From positions 1-43,389 of the IMG/VR virus record IMGVR_UViG_2778261064_000026: 43,389 nucleotides of DNA; one strand, written 5' to 3'. The translations under genes and the position numbers were made by a program. Shown piece by piece: positions 2,642 through 37,187 of this stretch. A model generated the notes under the pieces. That model had not been told where the DNA came from. It ran no database searches and saw nothing but the letters and a program-made list of their open reading frames with translations. Origin of the DNA: a virus. Its lineage: Duplodnaviria > Heunggongvirae > Uroviricota > Caudoviricetes. Numbering within the stretch: position 1 is the stretch's first letter; each line of letters opens with the position of its first letter.

Positions 2642-3817
2642 TTAGGCAGCGTCTAAGAGAGTATTAAAGTATTCATCCATTAAATCAGGACTGTCGTCAT
2701 CAATACAGAAAAATTCCGGTTTATTGATGCCGTAGAAGTGAGTATGTAGCTTGAATGTATCGTCATCAAATACATCTTTCTGGGATACCCACATATTAGC
2801 CTCGTCCGGTTGATTGGTTAGGTAGTCATAAACCAGTTGCTGTAAGTGTGGTAACTCATCAATAGTCAGAGTTTCCGACCATCCATCCTTGAAATCTTTG
2901 TAGGGTGCTGCATGAGTCTTGAAGCGTTGTTTTACTTCATGCTCTAAATCAACGGCTTTCCAACCATCCTCAAACTCATGAGTAAAGATTAAGCGGTGAG
3001 TGAAGTTGCTCTTTCTGGTTTGCTCTCTCATTCGTTCTTCTGGTTTCCGGGTAGTGATTCCAAATTTAATAAATTTGTCATCTAATAATTGAATATAGAA
3101 ACTAGCCTTACCCTGATAAGTCCGGTTAGACAGTTGCACCAGTTGGTCTTTAATGCAAAGCGGACAAGTGAAAGAATCAGCACATCTTAAATGAGATTCC
3201 CATTCGTGATTATGTGTCTTGCAATAGGTTTTAAATTTAACATCCTTTAGGTGTGGGGTGTTTATGATGAATCCTTTGAAGGTGTAAGGCGTACTCTCGC
3301 AACGTGCATTGATGATTGTCTCTTTGTCCTTAATAACTTCATCAAAAGTCTTGCCACTTCTTACCCGTTGGGATTTTTCAGCCATACAGATTTTGCAATC
3401 AAAATCGAAATCATCTTTGAGAGCATGTAATAGAGATGGCGTCATGATTTGATTGTGTTCAGGGCACAAAACACGGGATTTTGTCTTGTTGCGCCCTTTC
3501 CATTCTCCTTGCCATCCGAGGAATTTCTTTCCCTTCTCATTACAACGAGATTCCATTTTCAACCATACAGCCTTTTCAGTCTGGAGTAACTCACCCCCGT
3601 TAGTATCTTCCAGTTTGCGTAATTTGTAGTCCTTATATTCTTGTGTATCTAAATTGTAGATTCGAAAGTAAGTGTGATTACCCTTCCACGGTAGGATAAA
3701 TCCACCAAATACGAAAGCAGGTTCCAGTTTAGCGATGATTCGTTGTTGGTACTCTTCCGGCGATAAACCGCGAGTTTTCTTAACAAAAGGAATTTCGGCA
3801 GCGTAAGCAAGTTTCAT
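2642..3817 (-). CDS. T5orf172 (GIY-YIG-like) domain protein with several Cys-pair zinc-finger-like motifs, about 391 aa from internal ATG
   Basis: FIKFGITTRKPEERMREQ motif; multiple CxxC/CxxH pairs; start moved to MKLAYAAE because of RBS gaggaaact; track ORF extends to 3928. Confidence 0.5.
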   Translation of the reverse strand: MKLAYAAEIPFVKKTRGLSPEEYQQRIIAKLEPAFVFGGFILPWKGNHTYFRIYNLDTQEYKDYKLRKLEDTNGGELLQTEKAVWLKMESRCNEKGKKFLGWQGEWKGRNKTKSRVLCPEHNQIMTPSLLHALKDDFDFDCKICMAEKSQRVRSGKTFDEVIKDKETIINARCESTPYTFKGFIINTPHLKDVKFKTYCKTHNHEWESHLRCADSFTCPLCIKDQLVQLSNRTYQGKASFYIQLLDDKFIKFGITTRKPEERMREQTRKSNFTHRLIFTHEFEDGWKAVDLEHEVKQRFKTHAAPYKDFKDGWSETLTIDELPHLQQLVYDYLTNQPDEANMWVSQKDVFDDDTFKLHTHFYGINKPEFFCIDDDSPDLMDEYFNTLLDAA

Positions 3818-3876
3818 AGTAGTTTCCTCTAAAATAATAAGCTCACTACTATTTATTAGAGAAAATTGTCTTACTA

Positions 3877-3904
3877 TTGCATTCTCTATCTGGATGTGTA
3901 CAAT
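3877..3904 (+). promoter_or_regulatory. sigma70-like promoter (TTGCAT, 16-nt spacer, TACAAT) for the 3971 gene
   Basis: hexamers read directly from sequence. Confidence 0.3.
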
Positions 3905-3970
3905 ACGCGACCCTAAATCCCAAACCAACCATATTGAGGTTATGCCTATAAGTTAAAAAGTGAGGTCTAT

Positions 3971-4540
3971 ATGATTCCAGTAATGGCTAAAGATATTGTT
4001 TTTACTCCTAAATCCTCCCGTGCTGCAACTCCATCGGCATTAGAACAACGCATTCTGACTCACATCAAAGAGAAGGACTTACCGTTAGTCTTTCATGGCT
4101 TTCTGGGTGAGTTTAAAGGGCTTCATTCAAGAATTGCTCTTACATGTACCCGATGCGGCAATAGAGCCGACAAATCAGCTACCAACCTGCTTAATGAAGG
4201 TAAACGCTGTGCATGTCTCAAAAGTGATTACTTTCAATATAAAGCGGGTGTGCCTTATCTCTATGTAATGAAATCAGGGGATATTGGTAAATTTGGTGTA
4301 ACAAAGTCAATCATCAAGCGACGTGTTAATCTGGGTGTACGCAATCCCGGTCATAACTTTGATATTGTCTTTGCTGGTGAAATGCCATCAATGAAACATG
4401 CTTTAGCCACTGAAAGAGCAATAAAGAGATTACTGGATGTGGGTATAGGCGGGATTGAATACGGCAAAACTGAAACATTCCACTACTGCAATAAATCACT
4501 AAACAATATAAAGAATATTGCAAGTGTGGAGTGGAACTAA
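3971..4540 (+). CDS. T5orf172/GIY-YIG-like domain protein, 189 aa, N-terminal Cys cluster
   Basis: YLYVMKSGDIGKFGVTKS motif; RBS gtgagg; stop overlaps helicase start (TAATG). Confidence 0.4.
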   Translation: MIPVMAKDIVFTPKSSRAATPSALEQRILTHIKEKDLPLVFHGFLGEFKGLHSRIALTCTRCGNRADKSATNLLNEGKRCACLKSDYFQYKAGVPYLYVMKSGDIGKFGVTKSIIKRRVNLGVRNPGHNFDIVFAGEMPSMKHALATERAIKRLLDVGIGGIEYGKTETFHYCNKSLNNIKNIASVEWN

Positions 4541-6030
4541 TGCAAGATATTAAAATTCATTTTCAAGATTACAGTTTCGTTAAGGTTGATTGCTCTCCTT
4601 CTATCGGAATGGAATTAAGAGATTATTTCTCGTTTGAGGTTGAAGGGGCTAGGTTTAGCCCCCGCTACAAGTATTCCGGCTGGGATGGACGAATAAGACT
4701 GTTTACGCATGAAAATATCCTACCAATTGGACTATTAAAAACGTTGGGTGTCTTCGTTAAAAATATGGGCTATTCAGTCTGGATTGACCCGCGATTGCTT
4801 GAGAAGGAAGATGTAACCAAAGACGCGATTAATGAATGGATTGATTCCCTAGAAGTGTATTCCGGTTCCAATAAAATCAATCCTTACTGGTATCAAAGGG
4901 AGGCAGTCTTTCAGGGTATCCATAATCGCCGTAGAATGCTGGTTCTTCCTACCAGTGCCGGAAAGTCATTGATTGCTTGTATGCTGTCTCGTTGGTACTT
5001 AGAGAACTACACCGGAAAGATTCTAATCATTGTCCCGACTACATCGCTGGTGGTTCAAATGAGGGATGATTTTGTTGATTATCGGTTATTCCCTTATGAA
5101 GCAATCCATACAATGATGAGTGGTAGCGGGAAACATCCGGGAGACAGGTTAATCACGGTTAGTACCTGGCAATCAGCTTGCAAGATGCCTCCTGAATGGT
5201 TCAAACAATATGGAATGTTGATAGTTGATGAATCGCATAAGGCTAGTGCCAAAAATATTACCAATATCATTAACGGAATGAATCATTGCCAGTTTAAGAT
5301 CGGTATGACTGGTTCCCCGAAAGAATCAAAGTGCCATTTAATGCAATACGTCGGTATGTTCGGTGATATTTCTAAGATCGTGAGTATTGACCGCCTGATG
5401 GAAGAAGGGCAGGTGACAAAACTGAAAATTAACTGTCTTTTCCTTCGTTATACCGATGAGGAATGTAGCGCGGTTAAGGGGCGAGAATATGCGGAAGAGA
5501 TCAAGTACATCACTTCGCACGGGAGACGAAATAAGTTTGTGTGTAATTTGGCGCTAAAACTCGCTAAGAAGAACGAAAACGTATTTCTGATGTTCCGTAA
5601 CACTAAACACGGAAAACTTATGTATGACGCGTTACAGAAGGTACATGATAAGGTTTATTACATTGATGGTGGAGTTAAGACAGAAGAACGTGATGAATTT
5701 AAGAAAATGGCGGAGGGTGACACCGGGATCATTTGTGTTGCGTCTTATGGTGTGTTCTCTACTGGTGTTTCAATTAAGAACTTGCACCATGTCATTTTCG
5801 GTCATCCGGTGAAAGAATCAACTATCGTTCGTCAGAGTATTGGCCGTGCATTGCGTAAACATGGTTCTAAGGATATTGCGACCGTCTGGGATCTTATCGA
5901 TCATCTGTGTATATTCGGTCGTAACGGAAAAGTCAAGCATAAAAATTATGCGGTAAAACATGCACTTGAGAGAATCCGCTATTATCTAACCGACAAGTTC
6001 AGCTATGCAACTAAAACAATTGCTATATAA
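4540..6030 (+). CDS. SF2 DNA helicase, UvsW-like (recombination/repair helicase), 496 aa from ATG 4540
   Basis: Walker A LPTSAGKS, DExH box IVDESHKAS, motif VI QSIGRALRKHG; N-terminal domain and motif order resemble my recollection of T4 UvsW. Confidence 0.7.
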   Translation: MQDIKIHFQDYSFVKVDCSPSIGMELRDYFSFEVEGARFSPRYKYSGWDGRIRLFTHENILPIGLLKTLGVFVKNMGYSVWIDPRLLEKEDVTKDAINEWIDSLEVYSGSNKINPYWYQREAVFQGIHNRRRMLVLPTSAGKSLIACMLSRWYLENYTGKILIIVPTTSLVVQMRDDFVDYRLFPYEAIHTMMSGSGKHPGDRLITVSTWQSACKMPPEWFKQYGMLIVDESHKASAKNITNIINGMNHCQFKIGMTGSPKESKCHLMQYVGMFGDISKIVSIDRLMEEGQVTKLKINCLFLRYTDEECSAVKGREYAEEIKYITSHGRRNKFVCNLALKLAKKNENVFLMFRNTKHGKLMYDALQKVHDKVYYIDGGVKTEERDEFKKMAEGDTGIICVASYGVFSTGVSIKNLHHVIFGHPVKESTIVRQSIGRALRKHGSKDIATVWDLIDHLCIFGRNGKVKHKNYAVKHALERIRYYLTDKFSYATKTIAI

Positions 6031-27440: not shown

Positions 27441-29345
27441 TTAGAACGATGTTACCCAGCTACGGCCTCTATTTGGACGTCTGGCGATGTTTTGACGTTG
27501 TGGTCGTGTGATTGGCTTAGTTTCTTCGATTTGCTCGTCAGATTGCGTTTCAGGAGCTTTTACGGGTTCTTCTGGTTCACGGTTCAAACTATCTTTGATG
27601 GCTTCGAGTTTTTCCCATGACATTTTATTGAGTACATGGCGAGAAGCAGCATAGGAATAAGCCAGGCAGTCGAGAGCCTCGTTTCGTTGCTGACCAACTT
27701 TTACCCAACGTGTGGTGTTACCCTGCCGTTTCAACTGTTCAGAAAGCAATTGCTCGCAATAGTCATCAGGAACGTCGCCAATCTGGAAGACAGTGTGAGG
27801 ATCGCCATCTCTCAAATTCCGGTTAATCATTTCACGGATCATCGTTTTAAGGTTGTTTACGCCCAGAATTTTAAGGGTAAAACCACCCGTTCTTGTGTCT
27901 TTTACCGGAAGGATTGGTGCATCAACATTGCTTGCGCCTTTAATGGCGGTTAGATTTTGCCACCGACTACAGAATCGATAGATCACTTGCGTAGCTCGTC
28001 CGTTCGATGAGTCCACGAAAGCAGATAACATCGGGATTCGTTCACCGGATCGGGTATAGAATTTCGCTTTCAGGAAGTTGTAAAGCTGGTCATATGCTGG
28101 TGATTCGTGGCGTTCGCAGTTCACATCATAGAATGATCGGTGATCAACTACGCATAGCCCTTTACGAGAAATACCCAGCAAGGTAGATTCCAGACGGTCT
28201 TTTTGCTGGTCAACTCCACCAACCAGAGCCAGTACATCATCAGGAATATTGTCTAGGCTAATATCAGTTTTCAGCGTTTCTAATTCGTCGGCTGTGCGGT
28301 CTTCGTTAAGATCATCGAAGGTTTCACCGAGGACTGTATTGTAGAACGTTGCCAGGGACATATTCGCGTAGCTATCAGCAAAGTCCACCACACACGCACG
28401 GATAGAACTAAACGGAGACATAAGGCGGTTAGCATGAAAACCGATTACTTCCGCGTTTGGTTCGGTGGCGACCCATTCTCCCTTAGCAACAGCACGTAGG
28501 CGATCCCCTTCGGTCCAATCGGTTTCACATTCAGGGCAACGGTAAACGGCTGTATCTGGGTTGGGTAATGATTTACCGTTAATCGTATGCCAATCGAAAT
28601 GTACGTTACTCCATTCCATTACGTGCTTGTGTCCGCAATGCTGGCAAACGACATGATATTTTCTCTTATCCGAGAGTTCCCATTGTTGGTTAATCGCCCC
28701 ATCACGAGCGGTTGGAGTGGAAGCAATTACGATCCTTGCATCTTCCCCGAAAGTGGTTGCGCGTTGTTCCGCTAGCTGGATCGGGTTCCCTTCGTCTGAT
28801 TCATCAGCCGCATCAACTTCATCAAGAATAATCAAAGGGAGTGTCTTACCGCGCAAGTGTGATGGACTGTTCAGCGACATGAAATACATGAATGATCCAT
28901 TACGAAGCTGAATAATCGATGAGTTGTTAACAGCATTACGGTCTGATTTGTCGGTGATCATCGCTTTTAATTCTGGCGTTGCCTCTAATACTGGCTTCAC
29001 CTTACCAGCGATCCAAGAATTTAGTTCCCTAACGTTACTTTGCAACACCCCAATATTCGTAGGGTTACTCGCGATCCGATGGAAGATAATTCCGTTAAGA
29101 ATCATGGTCTTACCCAACTGCGCCGAACATTTAAACACAATTTTTCTACGGTCTTCGGTGATCGCGTCCATCATTCCACGTTGGAAGGGATGCAATTTAA
29201 TTAGCGATCCGGCTTTAACACCATCGGTTGCAACTACATTAGCCTCTACCCATTCGCTAGGTTTCATCGTTTTAGGTGGGCGAATTGCCGCAGAGATATT
29301 TTTAAGAATCTTTTTTAATTTGGCCTTATTAGAAATCAGTTTCAT
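27441..29345 (-). CDS. terminase large subunit, lambda gpA family, 634 aa from MKLISNK
   Basis: Walker A KCSAQLGKT; CQHCGH zinc motif; NTVLGETF and RNEALDCLAYSYAA segments matching gpA-family landmarks; RBS gaggg before ATG 29345; track ORF extends to 29420. Confidence 0.85.
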   Translation of the reverse strand: MKLISNKAKLKKILKNISAAIRPPKTMKPSEWVEANVVATDGVKAGSLIKLHPFQRGMMDAITEDRRKIVFKCSAQLGKTMILNGIIFHRIASNPTNIGVLQSNVRELNSWIAGKVKPVLEATPELKAMITDKSDRNAVNNSSIIQLRNGSFMYFMSLNSPSHLRGKTLPLIILDEVDAADESDEGNPIQLAEQRATTFGEDARIVIASTPTARDGAINQQWELSDKRKYHVVCQHCGHKHVMEWSNVHFDWHTINGKSLPNPDTAVYRCPECETDWTEGDRLRAVAKGEWVATEPNAEVIGFHANRLMSPFSSIRACVVDFADSYANMSLATFYNTVLGETFDDLNEDRTADELETLKTDISLDNIPDDVLALVGGVDQQKDRLESTLLGISRKGLCVVDHRSFYDVNCERHESPAYDQLYNFLKAKFYTRSGERIPMLSAFVDSSNGRATQVIYRFCSRWQNLTAIKGASNVDAPILPVKDTRTGGFTLKILGVNNLKTMIREMINRNLRDGDPHTVFQIGDVPDDYCEQLLSEQLKRQGNTTRWVKVGQQRNEALDCLAYSYAASRHVLNKMSWEKLEAIKDSLNREPEEPVKAPETQSDEQIEETKPITRPQRQNIARRPNRGRSWVTSF

Positions 29346-29430
29346 GTAATTACCCTCATTACGAAATATGAAGGTATTTATTAAATTGTTGATTTTTTGA
29401 TAAATACGGGTATTAATCAAAGGGGGTTGT

Positions 29431-30036
29431 ATGCTAATTAATCAGCAACAAAGAGATGTATTAGAATTAGCCTTTTCTTGTTGTACCGATCATGAATATC
29501 GTTTGCCAGTTAAGCACCATCACAAGAAGACTGATTACACAACATCTGGATTTAGTCGTGAGGAAGCGAAAGAGATTTTAATAGAATTTTACCGCGATAA
29601 TGGTTATACAGACGTTCACAACTTCTTTAAGAAGCATAGAACATCACATACAGAGTTCCAGAGAGTCCGAGATTGGTTTGATTTTGATATCAAGCGTTAT
29701 TATCGAGTGGATGACGGTCCGATCTATCGGTTGCAGTGGAAGCCGATCCGAGAAGTGTTGAAACAGAAGAGATTGAATCACGCAATTACACGCTATCGTA
29801 ACGAGGCTTTCAAGAAAGGCTATGGTGATACAAGGGAACTATTCGTTGAACTCGCTAACGTGCGTTATAGCCACTATTACAACGATCCTAAAGGGTTCTT
29901 TGAAGTGCTTCGCAAGGTTGATATAAGTCGGGGTACATACTATTCACGGTTGAAGAAGTACGGGATTAAGGCAGAGTTCTTTATGAGTATTGACGATGGA
30001 GAACTTTTTCCGATAAAATGTAAGTCCTCTAAATAA
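29431..30036 (+). CDS. hypothetical protein, 201 aa, with C-terminal HTH module paralogous to the small HTH proteins
   Basis: C-terminal RELFVELANVRY...GTYYSRLKKYGIK aligns with the 60-aa and 77-aa proteins; RBS aaaggggg. Confidence 0.4.
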   Translation: MLINQQQRDVLELAFSCCTDHEYRLPVKHHHKKTDYTTSGFSREEAKEILIEFYRDNGYTDVHNFFKKHRTSHTEFQRVRDWFDFDIKRYYRVDDGPIYRLQWKPIREVLKQKRLNHAITRYRNEAFKKGYGDTRELFVELANVRYSHYYNDPKGFFEVLRKVDISRGTYYSRLKKYGIKAEFFMSIDDGELFPIKCKSSK

Positions 30037-30064
30037 AGGTGAACATTCACTTTAATTTGGAGAA

Positions 30065-30298
30065 ATGACTATGACTACTAAAGCTACTCGCGGTCGTCCT
30101 TGCCGTTTTACCCGTGAACAGATGGCTGATATTGCCTATGCTTACTATACAGCGGATCGTGGTAAGGAAGCGAAAGAACAGATTCTTAGTGAACATGGGA
30201 TCTCAATCGCCCAATTCTATAAGAATATGAAGAAGTTAGACATTAAATTCTATGTTCAGATCGGTGATGGTCAGATCGTAGAAGCAACAGGTTTTTGA
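30065..30298 (+). CDS. small HTH DNA-binding protein, 77 aa (FTRE...KKLDIK family)
   Basis: RGRPCRFTREQMADIAYAYY...GISIAQFYKNMKKLDIK, transposase-OrfA/resolvase-like HTH pattern. Confidence 0.45.
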   Translation: MTMTTKATRGRPCRFTREQMADIAYAYYTADRGKEAKEQILSEHGISIAQFYKNMKKLDIKFYVQIGDGQIVEATGF

Positions 30299-30313
30299 GT
30301 TTTGATTCTCTTT

Positions 30314-30338
30314 GCCACTCTTCGGAGTGGCTTTTTTG
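30314..30338 (+). terminator. rho-independent terminator
   Basis: gccactc-ttcg-gagtggc followed by tttttt. Confidence 0.7.
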
Positions 30339-30381
30339 TATGTAAAACAATCTGAGCAAAATTGGTTAGATCACCAGATAC

Positions 30382-30410
30382 AAAAAGCCCAGCGCAATTA
30401 TGCGCCGGGC
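30382..30410 (-). terminator. terminator after Rha-family gene
   Basis: 9-bp stem with one mismatch plus U-run on minus strand. Confidence 0.5.
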
Positions 30411-30416
30411 GATTAA

Positions 30417-31241
30417 TCACAGTCCGAAGACTTCCAGTGATCCAACATTCTGGCGTAGACGTTCAGCCGCTTTATTTTGAATCAGAATAGTGTTGTTCGG
30501 CTTAGGAAGATTCAGAGTTGCTTTTTGTTCTTCTTCCAGAACACCCAATTCAACCAGCACCGGAAGCACATCAACAGTAAACTCAAGCTGGTAGTGAGCA
30601 TTCATGCGGCAGAAAGACAGAGAAGAGTCATTAGCAACATACCCACACGGCTTGTTATTTTCATCGTAGACGCGCTCAATGTAGCCAGCAGTACGCAAGG
30701 CCGTTAGTGCTTCTTTAACCTTCGTAGCGCCCTTTTTAGCGCCTAACAGACGGGTCATTGAATGGCTATCTACTGATTTGCGAACATGAAGTTCAATCAG
30801 CTTTTTATTTTCGCGAGTTTTCTTTAATGCCAGTTCGATCCAGTCTGTTTCTTCAAAGTCTGCATACGGGTTAACGGCTAAACGTTCCTGACGCAGTTTT
30901 TCATTTTCTTCTTTCAGTCGCTTCCATTCCTGAATAACAACCATTCGACGCTTAACATCGTAACCAGTGACAAGAGTCAGCGTCATTTCTTCGTCTAAGT
31001 GATATACTGGTTCTTTAACAGCATATCCTAAGTTATTGATTCTCTCGACAAATTCAGTTTTGAGCTGATCGATAATACCTAAAGATTCGTACATTTCGCG
31101 AATATCGCGCATTACATTGCTGTGCTTCTTATCGGTAAATTCAGCGATCTGACGGGAAGACATGGTCAGCGGTTTGGTGTTATCGACAACCAGAGACACG
31201 GAAGCAGTTTTAGCAGTATTCATAACGGTAACAGTATTCAT
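30417..31241 (-). CDS. Rha-family phage regulatory protein (antirepressor-like), 274 aa
   Basis: N-terminal LTMSSRQIAEFTDKKHSNVMRDIREM typical of Rha domain. Confidence 0.7.
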   Translation of the reverse strand: MNTVTVMNTAKTASVSLVVDNTKPLTMSSRQIAEFTDKKHSNVMRDIREMYESLGIIDQLKTEFVERINNLGYAVKEPVYHLDEEMTLTLVTGYDVKRRMVVIQEWKRLKEENEKLRQERLAVNPYADFEETDWIELALKKTRENKKLIELHVRKSVDSHSMTRLLGAKKGATKVKEALTALRTAGYIERVYDENNKPCGYVANDSSLSFCRMNAHYQLEFTVDVLPVLVELGVLEEEQKATLNLPKPNNTILIQNKAAERLRQNVGSLEVFGL

Positions 31242-31330
31242 AGTAAAAATTCCCCTTAAACGGTTTAATGATTTGGTCCTCCTAGTTCCGGCATCACCAC
31301 CGGAACAATTTTATTTATAATAGAAATTTA

Positions 31331-31663
31331 TTACCAATCGATTTCTACCTGATCTTCTTCGTAGTAAGGAATCGCATATTCATAACGCCAGTTTTCGATG
31401 ATTTCACGTTCTTCATTAGTAAGAAGGTGATTGCTAACTGGAGTCGCATTGTGATTACCAGCTTCGAATTGTTCGCGAACTTCCAGCATTGCATGAATAC
31501 CAGTTAAGGACATCAGATCAAACGGAACATGCATACTACGGGAGATTGTTTCACGGGATACGCCCCAATCATTTTCTACATGGCTAGGGCTTACAGAAAC
31601 GGTTTTGCCGGAGATTTTAACAGTCCAGTCATACAGGGATTTAGTGATGGTAAATTCTTTCAT
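31331..31663 (-). CDS. hypothetical protein, 110 aa
   Basis: ORF track; co-oriented upstream of Rha-family gene. Confidence 0.4.
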   Translation of the reverse strand: MKEFTITKSLYDWTVKISGKTVSVSPSHVENDWGVSRETISRSMHVPFDLMSLTGIHAMLEVREQFEAGNHNATPVSNHLLTNEEREIIENWRYEYAIPYYEEDQVEIDW

Positions 31664-31675
31664 GTTACATCCTCT

Positions 31676-31780
31676 TTACAAATCTAGGTCAAATAGGTTC
31701 AAAATTGTCAAGTGCGATAATCATAAAAAAGTCAGAAAATTTTGTCAATACCCCTTGACAAGACGCCAAAGGGTTGACCT
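31676..31780 (-). promoter_or_regulatory. promoter with overlapping operator-like inverted repeats
   Basis: minus-strand TTGACA, 17-nt spacer, TATGAT; inverted repeat TTGTCAA-N6-TTGACAA at about 31742-31761; outer pair AGGTCAA/TTGACCT. Confidence 0.4.
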
Positions 31781-31783
31781 AAA

Positions 31784-32236
31784 TTACAGCATATCTAAGC
31801 CTTCATCGTAACCGTAGAAGCCACCGTGAGAAGAGAAACAGATTGGTGTGTAGTCGTCGTCATCTTCGTCTTGTTCATCGTGTTCTGGGGCTTCCTGAGC
31901 GGGTTGTTTACCATAATCAGCCATAATCTGGTCAAGATCGGCGATCCCATAGTAAGAGCCTAAATCAACGTCATATTCACGAACATCAAACGGCAGGTCA
32001 TCACGAACAATAATTGCCGGAATGTTGTTGTATTGTTCACGACCTTCATCAGTAAAGCAGTCTACGATCACCGTAGGGCGACCATTACGTTTAAGAGCAT
32101 AGAAAGCAGTTGAGAAATTGGAGTCTTCGGAATGACGAATGATGTTATAACCACGATTAGCGAAAACATGCATCATAGCCAGATTATCATCATGGTTCAG
32201 ACCCAGAAGAATGAAAGGAGTTTTAGTATTGATCAT
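31784..32236 (-). CDS. hypothetical protein, 150 aa, with acidic C-terminal tail
   Basis: ORF track; RBS agagga; EHDEQDEDDDDY tail. Confidence 0.4.
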   Translation of the reverse strand: MINTKTPFILLGLNHDDNLAMMHVFANRGYNIIRHSEDSNFSTAFYALKRNGRPTVIVDCFTDEGREQYNNIPAIIVRDDLPFDVREYDVDLGSYYGIADLDQIMADYGKQPAQEAPEHDEQDEDDDDYTPICFSSHGGFYGYDEGLDML

Positions 32237-32497
32237 AGTGGAAATCCTCTAAAAGAAAGTGAATCAAACAAAGTACACTATTATTTATAACGAGAAATTT
32301 TTGTCTAATTTGAAAGGAATTGGTATTCAGTCGGCTTCGCCTCCTTCATAGATTTTGATTAAATCATCATCAAAACGAAGAAGTATCTTTAGAATATAAG
32401 AATCTTTCTTTTGGAGAAATTATAATCAGGAAGCAATTTAGCAACCGAAGGTTGCAATCCCGAAGGGATAACCAATACCTTTCATGATCATTAAAGT

Positions 32498-32720
32498 GAT
32501 CTAGAATCATCTAGTAACCAGTTAACTACTATTATCTTCAAAGTGATTATTACTATCTTTCTAGAATCAGTTAGTAACTAGTTTAAAAATCCCTTTCAAG
32601 AAAATCCTTTCAGAAGTGATTCTCGATGCCACGCAGTGGCGTCGCAGACGTTTGAGAGTGAGCGAAGCGAGCGAGCAAACTAGTTAATTCCTTCTAAGAC
32701 CATCTAGTATCATCTAGTTT
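32498..32720. repeat. cluster of CTAG-rich palindromic repeats
   Basis: ctagaatcatctagtaaccagttaact, ctagaatcagttagtaactagtt, catctagtatcatctagtt; palindromes AGTTAACT, AACTAGTT, TTCTAGAA. Confidence 0.4.
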
Positions 32721-32865
32721 AAATTAGTGTTACTAGAAGTAATTGGTTAGCGCTTCGCGCAGTCGGGCTACGCCCTCCTAATATCTTTTTGGTTATTTGT
32801 TGTTTTTGGTTTTACACATGAGCGTAGCGAATGTGTTATATAATATCTATGCACGCCCGATTCCC

Positions 32866-33110
32866 CGTTTTTGCCCCTCGCTAAGTTAATGTTTTATAAA
32901 GAGTTTTTCTCACCAATCCTTTTCGGGGGCAAATTTCAGGGGCAAAAATTAGATTTTCAGGGGCAATTATTGGCATTTCAGGGGCAAAAATGAGGGGCAA
33001 AATCACCGTTTCCCAGAATTTCAGGGGCAAAAATAGTAGGTTTCAGGGGCAAAAATGGGATAGTGAAATCTAGGGGATTTTGGTTCAGGGGCAAAATTCA
33101 GGGGCAATTT
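32866..33110. repeat. iteron array: nine direct copies of (T)TCAGGGGCAA(AAAT) plus one inverted copy
   Basis: GGGGCAA cores at about 32926, 32939, 32960, 32981, 32995, 33024, 33046, 33088, 33101; inverted at 32871; spacings mostly 13-14, 21-22, 42 bp. Confidence 0.65.
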
Positions 33111-33148
33111 TCATAGTGTAGTGCTAGTGTAGGTTTGAAAGTCCTTTC

Positions 33149-33177
33149 TTGACACTATGTAGGTTTGGTGCTATACT
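33149..33177 (+). promoter_or_regulatory. near-consensus sigma70 promoter P1 (TTGACA, 17 nt, TATACT)
   Basis: read directly from sequence. Confidence 0.6.
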
Positions 33178-33206
33178 TGACAATTTGAGAAAAAATGTGG
33201 TATAAT
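33177..33206 (+). promoter_or_regulatory. consensus sigma70 promoter P2 (TTGACA, 18 nt, TATAAT), overlapping P1
   Basis: read directly from sequence. Confidence 0.6.
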
Positions 33207-33626
33207 ATTTGTATTGAAAGTGAAAATTTACCGATTTTCCTTCCTATTGTTATCACCGTGTTAAATTGTTATATGTTTGTGAAGATTTGGATCTGAGAGA
33301 AAATCTTGTAACAAATCTTTACAATTCATAGCTCAATTAATGCTCACCGCTTTAGCAAAAAGTGCTATGCATTTTTCTAAATTGATTGAATAAACATCAA
33401 TTTGGTTAATTCGTGTTCTTCTCTTTAGCAATTCGTGCTGCGGTTTAACACATTTAACACGTCTGATAACATCTGAATAACATTTTAACATATCTCTGTT
33501 ATAAATACATATATAAGAGATAAATGTGAGGGGTTGAAAAATAAAATACAATCCCCATATAAATAATAGTGAGCGGTTAACGCTCTTTTTTAAGAAATCA
33601 TTAATCCAGATTTAGGAGGATTTAAG

Positions 33627-33809
33627 ATGGCACGACCTGTTAAGTTCACTCGTGAAATCGTTTTAGAAATGGCAAAGCGTTATTTTGAACTGACACCTGA
33701 TGTAGTGATGGGTGAATGGTTTAAAGGTGAAGGTATTGATCAATCAACCTTCCACAAACTCTTAAAGAAGTATGACATTAAAGTAAAGATTACCGCAGAG
33801 GTGTGGTAA
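33627..33809 (+). CDS. small HTH DNA-binding protein, 60 aa (FTRE...KKYDIK family)
   Basis: MARPVKFTREIVLEMAKRYF...GIDQSTFHKLLKKYDIK; RBS aggagga. Confidence 0.5.
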   Translation: MARPVKFTREIVLEMAKRYFELTPDVVMGEWFKGEGIDQSTFHKLLKKYDIKVKITAEVW

Positions 33810-33922
33810 TAACCTTTCACTGAGAATTATATGATGGCTTTAAAAAAGAAAAAGCCTCCCTTGTTGCAGCAAAGGAGGCTTGAAATGAACAATTAAAACT
33901 AACTTTCCACGGAGTATTTATA

Positions 33923-34864
33923 ATGTTATTTTCCGCTAACTTTTTCACTAACGAAGTAACCAACGCTAAAGCAGTTATCAAATTTGGCACCGAAGCAAAC
34001 AAGAAGATTCAGCCGAAAGTTGTTGCTCATGTTTCCTTTGCGCAGCAGAAATCCGCTTTCGCTGGCTTTAAAGCACATCGTGAAGCACTGATCGCGGCTG
34101 GCTTTGGTGTTGACGGTAAACTGCCTAACGGCATTCGTAAAGCAATCGACCGCGTTAAACCTGCTAAAGACGTTGCAGTAGACCGCATCGTTACTTTTAC
34201 CGTTAAGAACTCTTCTGAACTGTTCCACCTGGTTATTGCTGGTGATACTGCTATCGTTTCCGCTCCTAACATGGATTTTCAGGATACCGCTGATTGCCAG
34301 ATCACCTTCGGTCGTCGTAAAGAAGTTACCGGAAAAGCTAAACTGAACTTCACTAAATCCGGCAATCCTTACTTTGCTGTTTTCTTTAACAGCCACGCTA
34401 CCGAAAAAGAAGTTGTAGAACTGGTTGCTTATGAAGGTGAAGAGAAAGAACGTATTGAATCTTGCGAAGCATTTCTGGAACTGGAAGCACAGGTGAATGC
34501 TGTTTCTCCGGTTGTTGAAGATCGCTTTGCTGCACTGGAAGCACAGATCGCAGAACTGAAAGCTGCACTGGAAGAAAAAGACCAGATTATCGAAGCACAG
34601 AAAGCTGAGATTGAAGAACTGAAAGCTAAAGAAGTTGCTCCGGTAGCAGTAGTTGAAAACGCGGCTGATGAGGCCGCAAATGATGAAGTAGAAGTGAAAA
34701 TCGATGTGATGCGTGATCCGATGGCTGCACTGCAATTACTTCGTTCTTTTAAGGGCAAATCTCATTTTTCTAGTGATGTAGAAGATGAGGAAGAAGAACA
34801 GAAACGCAATGCTGCAATGCTTCATGATGAAATGTACGGTACTAACTTTTCTTACTGCCAATAA
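33923..34864 (+). CDS. hypothetical protein, 313 aa, with central coiled coil and acidic patches; likely highly expressed
   Basis: host-optimal codons (ctg, cgt, ggt, aac, ttc); first large ORF downstream of tandem consensus promoters. Confidence 0.5.
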   Translation: MLFSANFFTNEVTNAKAVIKFGTEANKKIQPKVVAHVSFAQQKSAFAGFKAHREALIAAGFGVDGKLPNGIRKAIDRVKPAKDVAVDRIVTFTVKNSSELFHLVIAGDTAIVSAPNMDFQDTADCQITFGRRKEVTGKAKLNFTKSGNPYFAVFFNSHATEKEVVELVAYEGEEKERIESCEAFLELEAQVNAVSPVVEDRFAALEAQIAELKAALEEKDQIIEAQKAEIEELKAKEVAPVAVVENAADEAANDEVEVKIDVMRDPMAALQLLRSFKGKSHFSSDVEDEEEEQKRNAAMLHDEMYGTNFSYCQ

Positions 34865-34867
34865 AAA

Positions 34868-34886
34868 AGGGACTCCGAAGAGTCCC
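34868..34886 (-). terminator. terminator-like hairpin
   Basis: gggactc-cgaa-gagtccc preceded by A6 on plus strand (U-run on minus). Confidence 0.4.
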
Positions 34887-34970
34887 TAGTAAGTTTAGGT
34901 TAGGTTTTGCACAACAAAGATGAGGTTATAATGAACATAATGCTACATTATTCTTTAAAGCCAGAAAAAT

Positions 34971-34990
34971 AACCGCCCCCGAAGGGGCGG
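34971..34990 (-). terminator. terminator-like hairpin
   Basis: ccgcccc-cgaa-ggggcgg preceded by aaaaataa on plus strand. Confidence 0.4.
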
Positions 34991-35148
34991 GAGGATTAAT
35001 ACTCAATCTATACTTGTTATGTTTTTATGTTGTATAGTCACTGACTATGAAAACACTGTACTGAATGTGTTTTATGGCTTTTAATCGGGAACTCTCTTTC
35101 GAAAATTCCCTGTTAAAACCACATAAGGAGAAATGGCAGATTACAATA

Positions 35149-35433
35149 TTATTTAGTCTGTTTGAAAACAAACGTTAAAAATTCGATTAAGCAATATACC
35201 CAGCATACAGTAAGCAGTAGATGCATAGAAATAGCCGGATGGAAGTTAAAAAGTGTCATACTAACTAGGCCAACAATATAAGAAATTCCTTCGACAATTA
35301 ACGCAAGACTAGCAAATGCAACAAACGCACCTAAGAATAATTCAGCACGTTCTCTATTTTCGGTTCCGAGTTTATAAGCAGAAATAACAGCCAGAATAGT
35401 AATGATGACAGCATAGGTAATAAAAGTAGCCAT
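35149..35433 (-). CDS. small integral membrane protein, 94 aa, about 3 TM helices
   Basis: three hydrophobic segments; RBS aagagga. Confidence 0.45.
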   Translation of the reverse strand: MATFITYAVIITILAVISAYKLGTENRERAELFLGAFVAFASLALIVEGISYIVGLVSMTLFNFHPAISMHLLLTVCWVYCLIEFLTFVFKQTK

Positions 35434-35527
35434 AGTTTTATATCCTCTTAAAAGTTAAGCGGGGGATGTTCTCCCCCGTAGACGTTGACCAGCTCAACAT
35501 CTTTCATACATTTATTTATAACGCGTT

Positions 35528-36094
35528 TTAAGACACATCAAATTCATCGTCTTCTTCTGGTTCTTGTTCCGGTTCATCCATTAATGGTAATTCTTCTTCC
35601 TCGTCTTCACCAAAATCTGCATTTTCGAACAAGTCCCCTACTTCATTTAAACGACGCTCGATGATCTCCCTTAGCTTATTCTTCAATGTTTTCTGATCAG
35701 TGGCAGATTCGAGAATTTCTAAAGCGTCGATTGTGGCGATCTGCAAAATAGTCTGCTTCACTTTTCCGCAATATTCCGCTAGTTGCTGTTCTACATACCC
35801 GACAGGAATCAGGAGATTCATTGCTTCCTGGTTCTCTCGTTCGGCTGCGTCCGCTAATGCTCTCTCGCGGCGTAACTTCTCTACGTCGATTTGTTCTTTG
35901 ACAGTAGTTTCCCTGAGTGGACTGATGATATTTTTTGCTATCCATTCGGTCCCTTCCTTGAGCGGTACGCGTCGTGTATTGGTGTTAAATGGCATTCCTC
36001 GTTCTTGCCATTTCTTAGCGGCGTTAATTGTATAGCCGTATAAGCGGGAAATTTCTGTAAGGGTTAATTCTTCTTTCATCCGGTTATCCTCCAT
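35528..36094 (-). CDS. Nu1-like DNA-binding protein (candidate terminase small subunit), 188 aa
   Basis: N-terminal LTLTEISRLYGYTINAAKKWQERGMPF resembles lambda Nu1 winged-HTH (TIQNWQEQGMP) as I recall it; very acidic C-terminus. Confidence 0.4.
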   Translation of the reverse strand: MEDNRMKEELTLTEISRLYGYTINAAKKWQERGMPFNTNTRRVPLKEGTEWIAKNIISPLRETTVKEQIDVEKLRRERALADAAERENQEAMNLLIPVGYVEQQLAEYCGKVKQTILQIATIDALEILESATDQKTLKNKLREIIERRLNEVGDLFENADFGEDEEEELPLMDEPEQEPEEDDEFDVS

Positions 36095-36378
36095 TAAATT
36101 TGCGTAAAATTATTTATCTGATCTGCGCATTCAGGAGAGCGCCTAAAACGCTTTATAACGAAGGGAAAGATCGAGGCGAGGAAAGGGATTGGCTGGTGTT
36201 AATAGTCGCGTAGCGACCGCGCTGGTGGGCTGCACTGCACCTGTTTTGAAATCTCACACGCACATCAAAAACCGGGGTGCCGAAAACTCGCTTTATTTCA
36301 CCCGTGGAACAGTACCTATCAATTTTGTCAAGTCTTTTTTATAAATAATCGAAAATATTTTTCACGCGAGGGCAAATC

Positions 36379-36684
36379 ATGAAGACTAAAGATATTAAGA
36401 TTGACTTTGAAACTGTTGATGACGTTCGGGAACATCGCATTGATTCTACTGGCTGCATCTTCCAGCTTACTAACTCCCCTATTGGATTGATTATCTATGT
36501 AGCAGAAGATGACGTGTACGCTATGTGGGATGGACAGGATGAGTTTAAAGGCGGGAATAGCCATCTGATCAATACTCATGAGGGATTCGATCCGACTCCT
36601 GTCTGTATGCTTGCTTATCACGTAACACTGGATGAACTACCGGAAGCAAGCGCGCGTATCCGTAAAATGAAAGATATTAAGTGA
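36379..36684 (+). CDS. hypothetical protein, 101 aa, last gene before the chromosome junction
   Basis: ORF track; terminator downstream. Confidence 0.4.
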   Translation: MKTKDIKIDFETVDDVREHRIDSTGCIFQLTNSPIGLIIYVAEDDVYAMWDGQDEFKGGNSHLINTHEGFDPTPVCMLAYHVTLDELPEASARIRKMKDIK

Positions 36685-36702
36685 TGTAAGTAATTGATTC
36701 CT

Positions 36703-36732
36703 AAGCCCTGTCCTTGTGATGGGGCTTTTTTA
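36703..36732 (+). terminator. rho-independent terminator
   Basis: agccc...ggggct hairpin plus tttttt. Confidence 0.5.
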
Positions 36733-36746
36733 TTGGAAATCGGGTG

Positions 36747-37187
<441 letters not shown>

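What the first reader, a model, noticed from the sequence alone, without database searches (positions are those of the whole stretch)
32866..33110. Iteron array of GGGGCAA repeats with about 21-bp phasing upstream of the early promoters
Nine direct copies of (T)TCAGGGGCAA(AAAT) and one inverted copy sit in 245 bp of a 1.3 kb non-coding region. Centre-to-centre spacings cluster at 13-14, 21-22 and 42 bp, which would put many sites on one face of the helix, as expected for cooperative binding by a regulator or initiator. The array ends about 40 bp upstream of two consensus promoters. It could be an origin, a control region for the early promoters, or a sink for a host or rival-phage protein. I do not recognise the motif as any classical DnaA, IHF, lambda O or ParB site, so this may be an undescribed control element.
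Basis: seen in the sequence. Interest (0 to 1): 0.8.

Follow-up and report, generated by a model that had tools for sequence, protein, structure and literature searches.

The report
Phage repeat array with matching protein
The GGGGCAA repeats are a real, conserved array of binding sites in an uncharacterised E. coli prophage, and comparison with relatives shows that they are matched to an unknown 313-residue protein encoded 0.8 kb downstream, not to the small helix-turn-helix proteins; the pair most likely forms a swappable replication-origin or control module.

Summary
Nine direct copies and one inverted copy of (T)TCAGGGGCAA lie in 32871-33107, inside a 1,390-bp non-coding region, 41 bp upstream of two consensus sigma-70 promoters.

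The window holds a ~36.7 kb prophage inserted in ycdX. It has no close relative among isolated phages.

In 47 related loci from E. coli, Salmonella and Edwardsiella, an array sits at the same place, but its motif falls into six exclusive types. Only one protein tracks the motif type: the ~310-390 aa protein encoded just after the 60-aa gene (here 33923-34864, "p313").
- Its N-terminal ~165 residues are at least 70% identical within a type and at most 27% between types.
- The 60-aa protein can be 100% identical between types A and D.
- Between types, TerS reaches 99%, Rha 98%, the 77-aa protein 100% and the 201-aa protein 98% identity.

Array, promoter, leader, 60-aa gene and p313 are exchanged together as a 2.6-3.1 kb cassette. 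p313 has no Pfam, PHROG, NCBIfam or PDB match.

I read the array as the cognate binding sites of p313 (about 0.85). The function is inferred, not shown: most likely iteron-type origin plus initiator with autoregulation (about 0.4), or else an operator/immunity array (about 0.33).

The parts
32866..33110 (+). Type-A repeat array: nine direct copies and one inverted copy of (T)TTCAGGGGCAA(AAAT). It is organised as three 13-bp doublets plus single copies.
   Evidence: Position and spacing are conserved in Salmonella type-A relatives. Cores are 94% and spacers 70% conserved. Copy number ranges from 5 to 14 among relatives.
32871..32880 (-). The single inverted copy (GAGGGGCAAA on the - strand).
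   Evidence: It is kept in L096 but mutated in L097, so it is not essential in all relatives.
32923..32945 (+). Doublet 1: TCGGGGGCAA and TCAGGGGCAA, 13 bp apart.
32957..32966 (+). Single copy TCAGGGGCAA.
32978..33000 (+). Doublet 2: TCAGGGGCAA and TGAGGGGCAA, 13 bp apart.
33021..33052 (+). Two single copies of TCAGGGGCAA, 22 bp apart.
33069..33083 (+). One copy of the type-C motif (TCTAGGGGATTTTGG) embedded in the type-A array.
   Evidence: It is probably a mosaic relic or a cross-type site.
33085..33107 (+). Doublet 3: two copies of TCAGGGGCAA, 13 bp apart.
33113..33167 (+). Type-D-like sites (TAGTGTAG, TAGTGTAGGTTTG, ATGTAGGTTTG) just upstream of promoter P1 and inside its spacer. They include an exact 10-bp repeat, TGTAGGTTTG, at 33128 and 33158.
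   Evidence: (family D15). The window encodes no type-D protein.
33149..33206 (+). Two tandem consensus sigma-70 promoters, P1 (TTGACA-17-TATACT) and P2 (TTGACA-18-TATAAT), both with an extended -10 TG.
   Evidence: This arrangement is lineage-specific: eight E. coli relatives keep the array but not this segment, and Salmonella relatives have a different insert.
33207..33626 (+). A/T-rich leader of about 420 nt. It has conserved blocks (a 19-mer at 33421-33439), two TATAAATA boxes, and a terminator-like hairpin at 33571-33585 followed by a T run, just before the ribosome-binding site of the 60-aa gene.
33627..33809 (+). p60: a small three-helix HTH protein and the first gene of the rightward operon. 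It is part of the cassette but does not determine specificity.
33923..34864 (+). p313: the protein that covaries with the array motif. It has an N-terminal specificity domain of ~165 aa, a coiled coil (about residues 177-237), an acidic stretch, and a C-terminal LHDEMYGTNFS motif.
   Evidence: No family or structure match was found. Only 13 hits turned up among 1.84 billion representative proteins.
32790..34870 (+). Approximate extent of the exchangeable specificity cassette: array, promoters, leader, p60 and p313.

Best explanation
The array is the set of cognate DNA sites for the N-terminal domain of p313 (33923-34864). p313 is a previously undescribed protein, a predicted coiled-coil dimer with an acidic tail.

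p313 is made from the rightward early operon. It binds the asymmetric 11-13-bp units as doublets and singles, all in one orientation, and builds a multi-protein complex on about 240 bp.

My preferred reading of what that complex does is an iteron-type replication origin with p313 as the phage's initiator. The adjacent strong promoters and A/T-rich leader would supply transcriptional activation and easily opened DNA. In some types, extra sites at the promoter would give autoregulation.

What is shown (by comparison only): the site-protein pairing, the exchange of the cassette as a unit, and selection on the cores.

What is inferred: physical binding, dimer geometry, and the origin function.

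Confidence that p313 is the cognate partner is about 0.85. Confidence in the origin/initiator function is about 0.4, and that is the figure given below.
For: Pairing of array and p313
- 47 loci fall into six mutually exclusive motif types.
- Clusters of the downstream protein's N-terminal domain coincide exactly with motif type. Within-type identity is at least 70% and between-type identity at most 27%.
- Every other protein tested is 89-100% identical across some pair of types: TerS 99, TerL 99, p77 100, p201 98, Rha 98, p150 97, and p60 100.
- Within a type, the N-terminal domain stays 76-78% identical while the rest of the protein drops to 32-49%. That is the pattern expected of a specificity domain.
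- In complete E. coli genomes the array (33 genomes) and the p313 N-terminal domain (33 full-length) co-occur.

Origin reading
- All sites sit at one locus, are direct and in one orientation, and number 5-14 with 11-13 and 21-22 bp steps.
- In types A, C and E no site overlaps the conserved sigma-70 promoter.
- The array keeps its place next to the hairpin-rich region, while its distance to the promoter varies from 41 bp to about 500 bp.
- No other candidate initiator was found in the 36.7-kb prophage. The only recognisable replication-related gene is a UvsW-like helicase.
- Three small HTH paralogues plus Rha are available to fill the repressor/Cro roles.
- The two-domain mosaic, with a type-specific N-terminus and a shuffled C-terminus, parallels lambda O (established knowledge, recalled).
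- One genome carries two prophages of this family at different att sites. Both have nine-copy type-A arrays and an identical p313, while their Rha, p201, p77 and p150 differ. This fits poorly with p313 being the immunity determinant.
Against: - No binding or replication data exist.
- No conserved DnaA box, IHF site or strongly A/T-rich unwinding element flanks the arrays across types.
- p313 resembles no known initiator family.
- A cassette with at least six specificities among otherwise 91-97% identical phages is also the classic signature of an immunity region.
- Types D and F do have sites flanking or abutting the promoter.
- The phage might need no initiator at all, if it used a transcription-primed, ColE1-like or T4-like origin.
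Confidence: 0.4

Rival explanations
1. Operator or immunity array. p313 would be a transcriptional regulator, acting as a repressor, autoregulator or orientation-dependent roadblock. By coating the array it would control the early promoters. The cassette would then be the phage's immunity region, diversified to escape resident prophages.
For: - At least six specificity types are swapped between nearly identical phages, as with lambdoid immunity regions.
- The array lies in the divergent early control region, next to consensus promoters that must be silenced in a lysogen.
- Types D and F have extra sites beside the sigma-70 promoter or just downstream of it.
- The architecture (DNA-binding domain, coiled coil, C-terminal tail often ending in AA) recalls the Mu repressor, which binds about nine sites near its early promoter (recalled knowledge).
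Against: - In types A, C and E no site overlaps or abuts the conserved promoter. In Salmonella type A the array is about 410 bp away.
- There are no sites near the leftward promoter or the late genes.
- p313 is the second gene of an operon driven by 11/12 and 12/12 consensus promoters, which is unusual for a maintenance repressor.
- Two type-A prophages with identical p313 co-reside in strain BS74R-D.
- HTH paralogues p201, p77 and p60 are more conventional repressor/Cro candidates.
Confidence: 0.33
2. Centromere-like, titration or other architectural site. The p313-array complex would position, pair or count phage genomes, or would sequester p313 or a host factor. It would initiate neither replication nor transcription control.
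For: - It is a large array of direct repeats with doublets at about one helical turn. This resembles the ParR/parC, TubR/tubC and omega-heptad centromeres (recalled knowledge).
- All sites sit at a single locus.
- Copy number is plastic, from 5 to 14.
Against: - No partition NTPase or tubulin/actin-like gene is in the cassette or anywhere in the prophage.
- The element integrates with a serine recombinase and does not need partition.
Confidence: 0.1
3. RNA-level element. The array would be transcribed from an upstream promoter, and the repeats would act in the RNA, for example as binding sites for p313 acting as an RNA-binding regulator in a 5' leader.
For: - The strand bias is strict in all six types.
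- In the Edwardsiella relative the last repeat contains the start codon of the next gene, so that array must lie in a 5' UTR if the promoter is upstream.
- An extended -10-like TGTTATATAAT lies at 32834-32844 (read from the sequence).
Against: - In this window the array lies upstream of the mapped consensus promoters.
- There was no Rfam hit.
- No common RNA motif is shared across types.
- One-orientation arrays are equally typical of DNA iterons.
Confidence: 0.05
4. Packaging site (cosB or pac) recognised by the small terminase.
For: - Repeated sites are typical of cosB and pac regions.
- The terminase genes are oddly split around this region.
Against: - TerS is 99% identical between loci with type-C and type-A arrays.
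- A better cos candidate lies directly upstream of terS, at 36095-36378.
Confidence: 0.02

Closest known systems
Lambdoid phage ori iterons with the O initiator protein
   Same: - Direct repeats at roughly two-turn spacing are bound by the N-terminal domain of a two-domain early-right-operon protein.
- Iteron sequence and N-terminal domain covary between related phages, while the C-terminal half is exchanged separately.
- A strong early promoter lies nearby.
   Different: - Lambda ori lies inside the O gene and has four 19-bp iterons with internal symmetry next to an A/T-rich segment.
- p313 has no similarity to Phage_rep_O or any other Pfam family.
- No P-like partner gene is present in types A-D.
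- The array has 5-14 asymmetric units, with 11-13-bp doublets.
Iteron plasmid replicons (P1 oriR/RepA, F, pSC101, R6K, RK2)
   Same: - An array of one-orientation repeats about 21-22 bp apart lies upstream of the gene for its binding protein.
- Extra sites at the promoter in some types suggest autoregulation.
- Specificity types behave like incompatibility groups.
   Different: - No winged-helix Rep family signature was detected.
- No conserved DnaA boxes or unwinding element were found.
- A 60-aa gene and a 420-nt leader lie between the array and the p313 gene.
- The element is an integrating prophage, and no plasmid carries it.
Phage Mu repressor with operators O1-O3
   Same: - About nine sites are spread over roughly 200 bp beside the early promoter.
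- The protein has an N-terminal DNA-binding domain, a coiled-coil oligomerisation region and a C-terminal tail that could be a protease tag.
   Different: - There is no sequence similarity.
- p313 is co-directional with the early promoter and downstream of it.
- In type A no site overlaps a promoter.
- The resemblance is recalled from memory and was not tested.
P2 Cox / 186 Apl / lambda Xis direct-repeat arrays
   Same: - Runs of direct repeats about one helical turn apart are bound cooperatively in a phage control region.
   Different: - Those proteins are small (70-90 aa) winged-helix proteins tied to excision by tyrosine integrases.
- Here the partner is a 313-aa coiled-coil protein, and the integrase is a serine recombinase.
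PeSL cassettes of RB49-type T4-like phages (PMC2839356)
   Same: - The surrounding region combines consensus sigma-70 promoters with G+C-rich stem-loops.
- About 60-80 bp at 32345-32429 is about 80% identical to intergenic repeats of RB49-like phages.
   Different: - PeSLs have no protein-specific repeat array.
- The similarity lies about 450 bp to the left of the array and concerns the context, not the array itself.

Membership tests
Iteron-type replication origin | Three or more direct repeats in one orientation at roughly helical-repeat multiples | tested here: met
   Nine direct copies with steps of 13, 21, 21, 13, 30, 22, 42 and 13 bp. The same design appears in five other motif types.
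Iteron-type replication origin | A cognate sequence-specific protein encoded next to the repeats | tested here: met
   The p313 N-terminal domain covaries perfectly with motif type in 47 loci. That it is a replication initiator is not shown.
Iteron-type replication origin | An adjacent A/T-rich unwinding element and host-factor sites (DnaA boxes, IHF) | tested here: not met
   No conserved DnaA box or IHF site was found, and no segment of 78% A+T or more directly flanks the arrays across types. The leader is only moderately A/T-rich (GC 0.34).
Iteron-type replication origin | Supports autonomous, initiator-dependent replication | not testable with these tools
   Needs a cloning or marker-frequency experiment.
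Lambda O / Phage_rep_O or plasmid Rep (winged-helix) initiator families | Sequence or profile match to the family | tested here: not met
   No hit in Pfam, PHROGs or NCBIfam, and no PDB hit by sequence or profile.
CI/Cro-type operator | Sites overlap the regulated promoter and are dyad-symmetric | tested here: not met
   The units are asymmetric and direct. The nearest type-A site ends 41 bp upstream of the P1 -35 hexamer. In Salmonella type A the array is about 410 bp from the promoter.
cosB/pac site of the small terminase | Repeat sequence covaries with TerS | tested here: not met
   TerS is 99% identical between type-C and type-A loci.
Plasmid/phage centromere (parC/parS/tubC) | A partition NTPase is encoded in the same operon | tested here: not met
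   No ParA, ParM or TubZ-like domain was found in the cassette or the prophage.
   p60 is 100% identical between loci L110 (type D) and L111 (type A), and its helix 3 is nearly invariant. p77 is 100% identical between type-A and type-C loci.
Known RNA family | Rfam covariance-model match | tested here: not met
   No match at E <= 1 in 29000-37000.

The most novel reading that the evidence does not exclude
p313-type proteins would be a previously undescribed class of phage DNA-binding proteins, possibly a new kind of replication initiator. In this class, sequence-unrelated N-terminal specificity domains are grafted onto a common scaffold of coiled coil, acidic stretch and C-terminal tail. At least three groups of N-terminal domain are undetectable to one another by profile comparison. 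Each domain is paired with its own array of asymmetric 11-13-bp sites. Array and protein together would form an exchangeable replicon or incompatibility cassette, present in at least six specificities in prophages of E. coli, Salmonella and Edwardsiella.
Probability: 0.35. Interest if true: 0.75.

Novelty: new variant of a known kind. Interest (0 to 1): 0.6.

Why it matters
- It pairs an orphan protein family, which has no domain annotation and only a handful of relatives among 1.84 billion representative proteins, with a defined DNA motif. It does so in six natural specificity variants.
- That gives a ready-made experimental system: swap the N-terminal domain, swap the array.
- If the module is the origin and initiator, it fills the missing replication function of a prophage lineage found in about 1% of complete E. 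coli genomes and in many Salmonella. It would also add a new initiator type.
- If it is the immunity determinant, it defines the heteroimmunity groups of that lineage.
- Either way, it redirects the proposed wet-lab tests away from the 60-aa and 77-aa proteins and towards p313.

Tried and rejected
Searches for related sequences
- Megablast and blastn of the 1.39-kb region against isolated phages gave nothing but a 60-80-bp RB49-like element to the left of the array.
- tblastn of p313 against phages and plasmids gave no match.
- An Rfam scan gave no match.
- A scan of viral contigs for the 16-mer gave 65 loci. Only 14 held arrays, all close relatives; the rest were single chance matches.
- A search of 1.84 billion representative proteins gave 13 hits. 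Three were spurious matches to long repeat proteins such as BACON.

Structure of p313
- The single-sequence model was unusable (pLDDT 45).
- The alignment-based locus search failed for lack of conserved columns.
- So no fold comparison was possible for p313.

Structure of p60
- It folded as a generic three-helix HTH, with no significant PDB neighbour.

Hypotheses considered and rejected
- Terminase small-subunit site: rejected on the TerS covariation result.
- p60, p77, p201, Rha or p150 as the binder: rejected on covariation.
- A sigma-54 enhancer: the sigma-54-like promoter exists only in some Salmonella relatives and not here, and p313 has no AAA+ domain.
- A CRISPR-like array: the spacers are only 0-30 bp.

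Inconclusive
- An attempt to link the p201 alleles to the CTAG-rich repeats on the left gave no clear result.
- Profile comparison of the N-terminal domains between types linked only A with B. D, E and F were linked weakly, so the types may not share one fold.

Full report
**The observation**

GGGGCAA occurs 12 times in 43,389 bp, against 4.5 expected from shuffles. Ten of those lie between 32871 and 33107, nine on the + strand and one on the - strand. With its flanks the unit reads (T)TTCAGGGGCAA(AAAT).

Successive spacings are 13, 21, 21, 13, 30, 22, 42 and 13 bp. The array is therefore three 13-bp doublets plus single copies. Helical phasing is only approximate: the best single period is 10.8 bp.

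The array lies in a 1,390-bp stretch without credible ORFs, 32237-33626. It ends 41 bp before two tandem sigma-70 promoters that match the consensus in 11 and 12 of 12 positions.

**What the window is**

Positions ~1-36740 are a prophage inserted in ycdX. The ycdX N-terminal part is at 36747-37172, and the other half flanks the left end in strain UTME-12. The prophage encodes:
- a large serine recombinase (889-2568);
- a GIY-YIG/CapR-type endonuclease;
- a UvsW-like helicase (4531-6030);
- a leftward structural block ending with a gpA-type large terminase (27441-29420);
- an early region;
- a Nu1-like small terminase (35528-36094).

No isolated phage is close; the best capsid match is 43%. The non-coding region occurs in 58 of 5,426 complete E. 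coli genomes. The array itself is in 33 of them.

**Relatives**

The 60-aa protein led to syntenic prophages in Salmonella and in Edwardsiella tarda, which sit beside the same host genes (ghrA; the ycdX-type gene is visible in Salmonella). It also led to an E. coli lineage at a second att site, hicB.

All of them have a long non-coding region with a repeat array at the equivalent place, but the motif differs:

| Type | Motif | Where found |
|---|---|---|
| A | TCAGGGGCAA | this window, other E. coli, some Salmonella |
| B | TTCAAATGCTA | Edwardsiella |
| C | TGGAATCCGGGGGA | relatives |
| D | AGTGTAGGT | relatives |
| E | CGGGGA(CGG/AAC) | relatives |
| F | ACCTCCTAC | relatives |

Each locus has 5-12 copies of its own motif and almost none of the others. 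Nearly all copies are in one orientation, pointing towards the rightward operon. Doublets 11-13 bp apart are common.

**Which protein goes with the motif**

For 13 orthologous groups in 18 loci I compared identity within and between motif types. Only the ~310-390 aa protein encoded just after the 60-aa gene separates cleanly, with a within-type minimum of 52% and a between-type maximum of 30%. For every other protein, the most similar pair of loci from different types is 89-100% identical:

| Protein | Highest between-type identity |
|---|---|
| TerS | 99% |
| TerL | 99% |
| p77 | 100% |
| p201 | 98% |
| Rha | 98% |
| p150 | 97% |

Extending the set to 47 loci gave the same answer. Clusters of the N-terminal 165 residues coincide exactly with the six types (17 A, 19 D, 5 E, 2 each of B, C and F). 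Within-type identity is at least 70% and between-type identity at most 27%.

In contrast, p60 is 100% identical between a type-D and a type-A locus, and its putative recognition helix is almost invariant.

Within a type, the N-terminal domain stays 76-78% identical while the rest of the protein falls to 32-49%. C-terminal halves are shuffled between types.

Phages whose flanks are 91-97% identical differ by a 2.6-3.1 kb cassette. It comprises the array, promoter, leader, p60 and the p313-like gene, plus a second gene in types E and F.

Between the E. coli and Salmonella type-A arrays, the repeat cores are 94% conserved and the spacers 70% (p = 3e-6). Copy number ranges from 5 to 14; the 14-copy array arose by a 107-bp internal duplication in strain UTME-9.

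**What p313 is**

It matches nothing in Pfam, PHROGs or NCBIfam. It has no PDB match by sequence or profile, and no tblastn match in phages or plasmids. An exhaustive search of 1.84 billion representative proteins found 13 hits. Only three were full-length proteins of similar size (305-344 aa): p313's own cluster and two relatives at 50% and 34% identity. The rest were short fragments or spurious matches to long repeat proteins.

A low-confidence model suggests two helices followed by about six strands in the N-terminal domain, then a long helix at 177-237. I could not obtain a usable structure.

Profile comparison links the N-terminal domains of types A and B, and weakly those of D, E and F. 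It links nothing else. The family is therefore defined by position and architecture, and the N-terminal domains may have more than one origin.

**Function**

The pairing is strong comparative evidence that p313 binds the array. Binding itself is inferred.

*In favour of an origin with its initiator:*
- The sites sit at a single locus and are direct and numerous.
- In types A, C and E they are not at the conserved promoter. Its distance from the end of the array varies from 41 bp to about 500 bp.
- The prophage has no other candidate initiator, while it has three small HTH paralogues and Rha to act as regulators.
- The two-domain mosaic mirrors lambda O.
- Strain BS74R-D carries two family prophages at different att sites. 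Both have nine-copy type-A arrays and identical p313, while their other early proteins differ.

*Against it:*
- No conserved DnaA or IHF sites, and no marked unwinding element, were found.
- p313 resembles no known initiator.

*In favour of the regulatory or immunity reading:*
- Cassette diversification between near-identical phages is typical of immunity regions.
- Types D and F have extra sites at the promoter.
- The protein architecture is Mu-repressor-like.

I put the origin/initiator reading, with autoregulation, at about 0.4. The operator/immunity reading is at about 0.33. Centromere-like or titration roles get about 0.1, an RNA-level role about 0.05, and a packaging site about 0.02.

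**Comparison with known systems**

It works most like lambdoid ori-O pairs or plasmid iteron-Rep pairs. However, it fails the membership tests that could be run, namely family match and host-factor sites. It is not a CI-type operator, a cosB site or a par centromere by their defining features.

I class it as a new variant of a known kind: a site array with a cognate specificity protein, where the protein family is novel.

Noticed in passing
window 32345-32429: About 60-80 bp is about 80% identical to intergenic repeats that occur 3-4 times per genome in RB49-like (Krischvirus) T4-type phages. The surrounding mix of consensus promoters and G+C-rich stem-loops resembles the PeSL regulatory cassettes described for RB49 and phi1 (PMC2839356).
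   Followed up: partly
window 32440-32850: A run of short G+C-rich hairpins with GAA, GTA or GCA triloops, or their complements (for example gcaaccGAAggttgc, atcccGAAgggat, gcgcTTCgcgc, gggcTACgccc). GCGAAGC or its complement occurs three times. Relatives have hairpins at the same positions but with different stems, which suggests selection for the structure itself.
   Followed up: partly
window 32276-32289 (-) and 33558-33571 (+): A perfect 14-bp inverted repeat, TATAAATAATAGTG, lies about 55-70 bp upstream of the start codons of both divergent operons (p150 and p60). A third TATAAATA box is at about 33499. The motif is conserved in relatives and resembles the T4 late-promoter box TATAAATA.
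   Followed up: no
L084 9528-9543; also L085, L091, L092, L096, L097: A perfect sigma-54-type promoter (TGGCAC-N5-TTGCA) lies about 140-150 bp downstream of the array in six Salmonella relatives of types A, C and D. It sits in a block with a 9-bp inverted repeat (TTTCACCAC...GTGGTGAAA). It is absent from this window.
   Followed up: partly
window 32500-32726: CTAG-rich direct repeats (TCTAGAATCATCTAGTA, four copies) are interleaved with the hairpins. In addition, a quasi-palindrome TGAAAGTCCTTTCTTGA overlaps the P1 -35 hexamer (33136-33152) and has an inverted partner at 32596-32612, 523 bp away, so the pair brackets the array. These may be sites for a different regulator.
   Followed up: no
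window 27441-29420 and 35528-36094: The small and large terminase genes lie about 6 kb apart, with the whole early region between them. A likely cos region, G+C-rich with GGGAAAG-type repeats, lies upstream of terS at 36095-36378.
   Followed up: partly
window 2642-4540: A GIY-YIG/T5orf172 endonuclease with a CapR-homology domain (2642-3928, - strand) and a 189-aa CapR-like protein (3971-4540) sit next to the UvsW-like helicase. They look like a homing-endonuclease insertion or a domesticated copy.
   Followed up: no
L130 12258-14881 and L131 14382-17001 (E. coli BS74R-D): One genome carries two prophages of this family, one in ycdX and one in hicB. Their p60 and p313 proteins are identical and both have nine-copy type-A arrays, but their Rha, p201, p77 and p150 differ. 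The cause could be recent cassette exchange or double lysogeny of the same type.
   Followed up: partly
L132 301-762 (E. coli UTME-9): A 107-bp internal duplication raises the array to 14 direct copies. The P2 -35 hexamer is TTGAAA there.
   Followed up: yes
L082 13413-15044 (Edwardsiella relative): A 543-aa reverse-transcriptase-TIR protein, which looks like a defence gene, lies between terS and the next host-type genes (GGDEF, ghrA homologue).
   Followed up: no
p313-like proteins of L086, L088, L091, L097, L098: Five of eight representative p313-type proteins end in ...AA (YAA, FAA, LAA, RAA). This is reminiscent of ssrA-like ClpX recognition tails. This window's protein ends in ...SYCQ.
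   Followed up: no
L001 12673-13370 (E. coli UTME-12): An IS1B element is inserted between the capsid and portal genes of the otherwise 99%-identical prophage, so that copy is probably defective.
   Followed up: no
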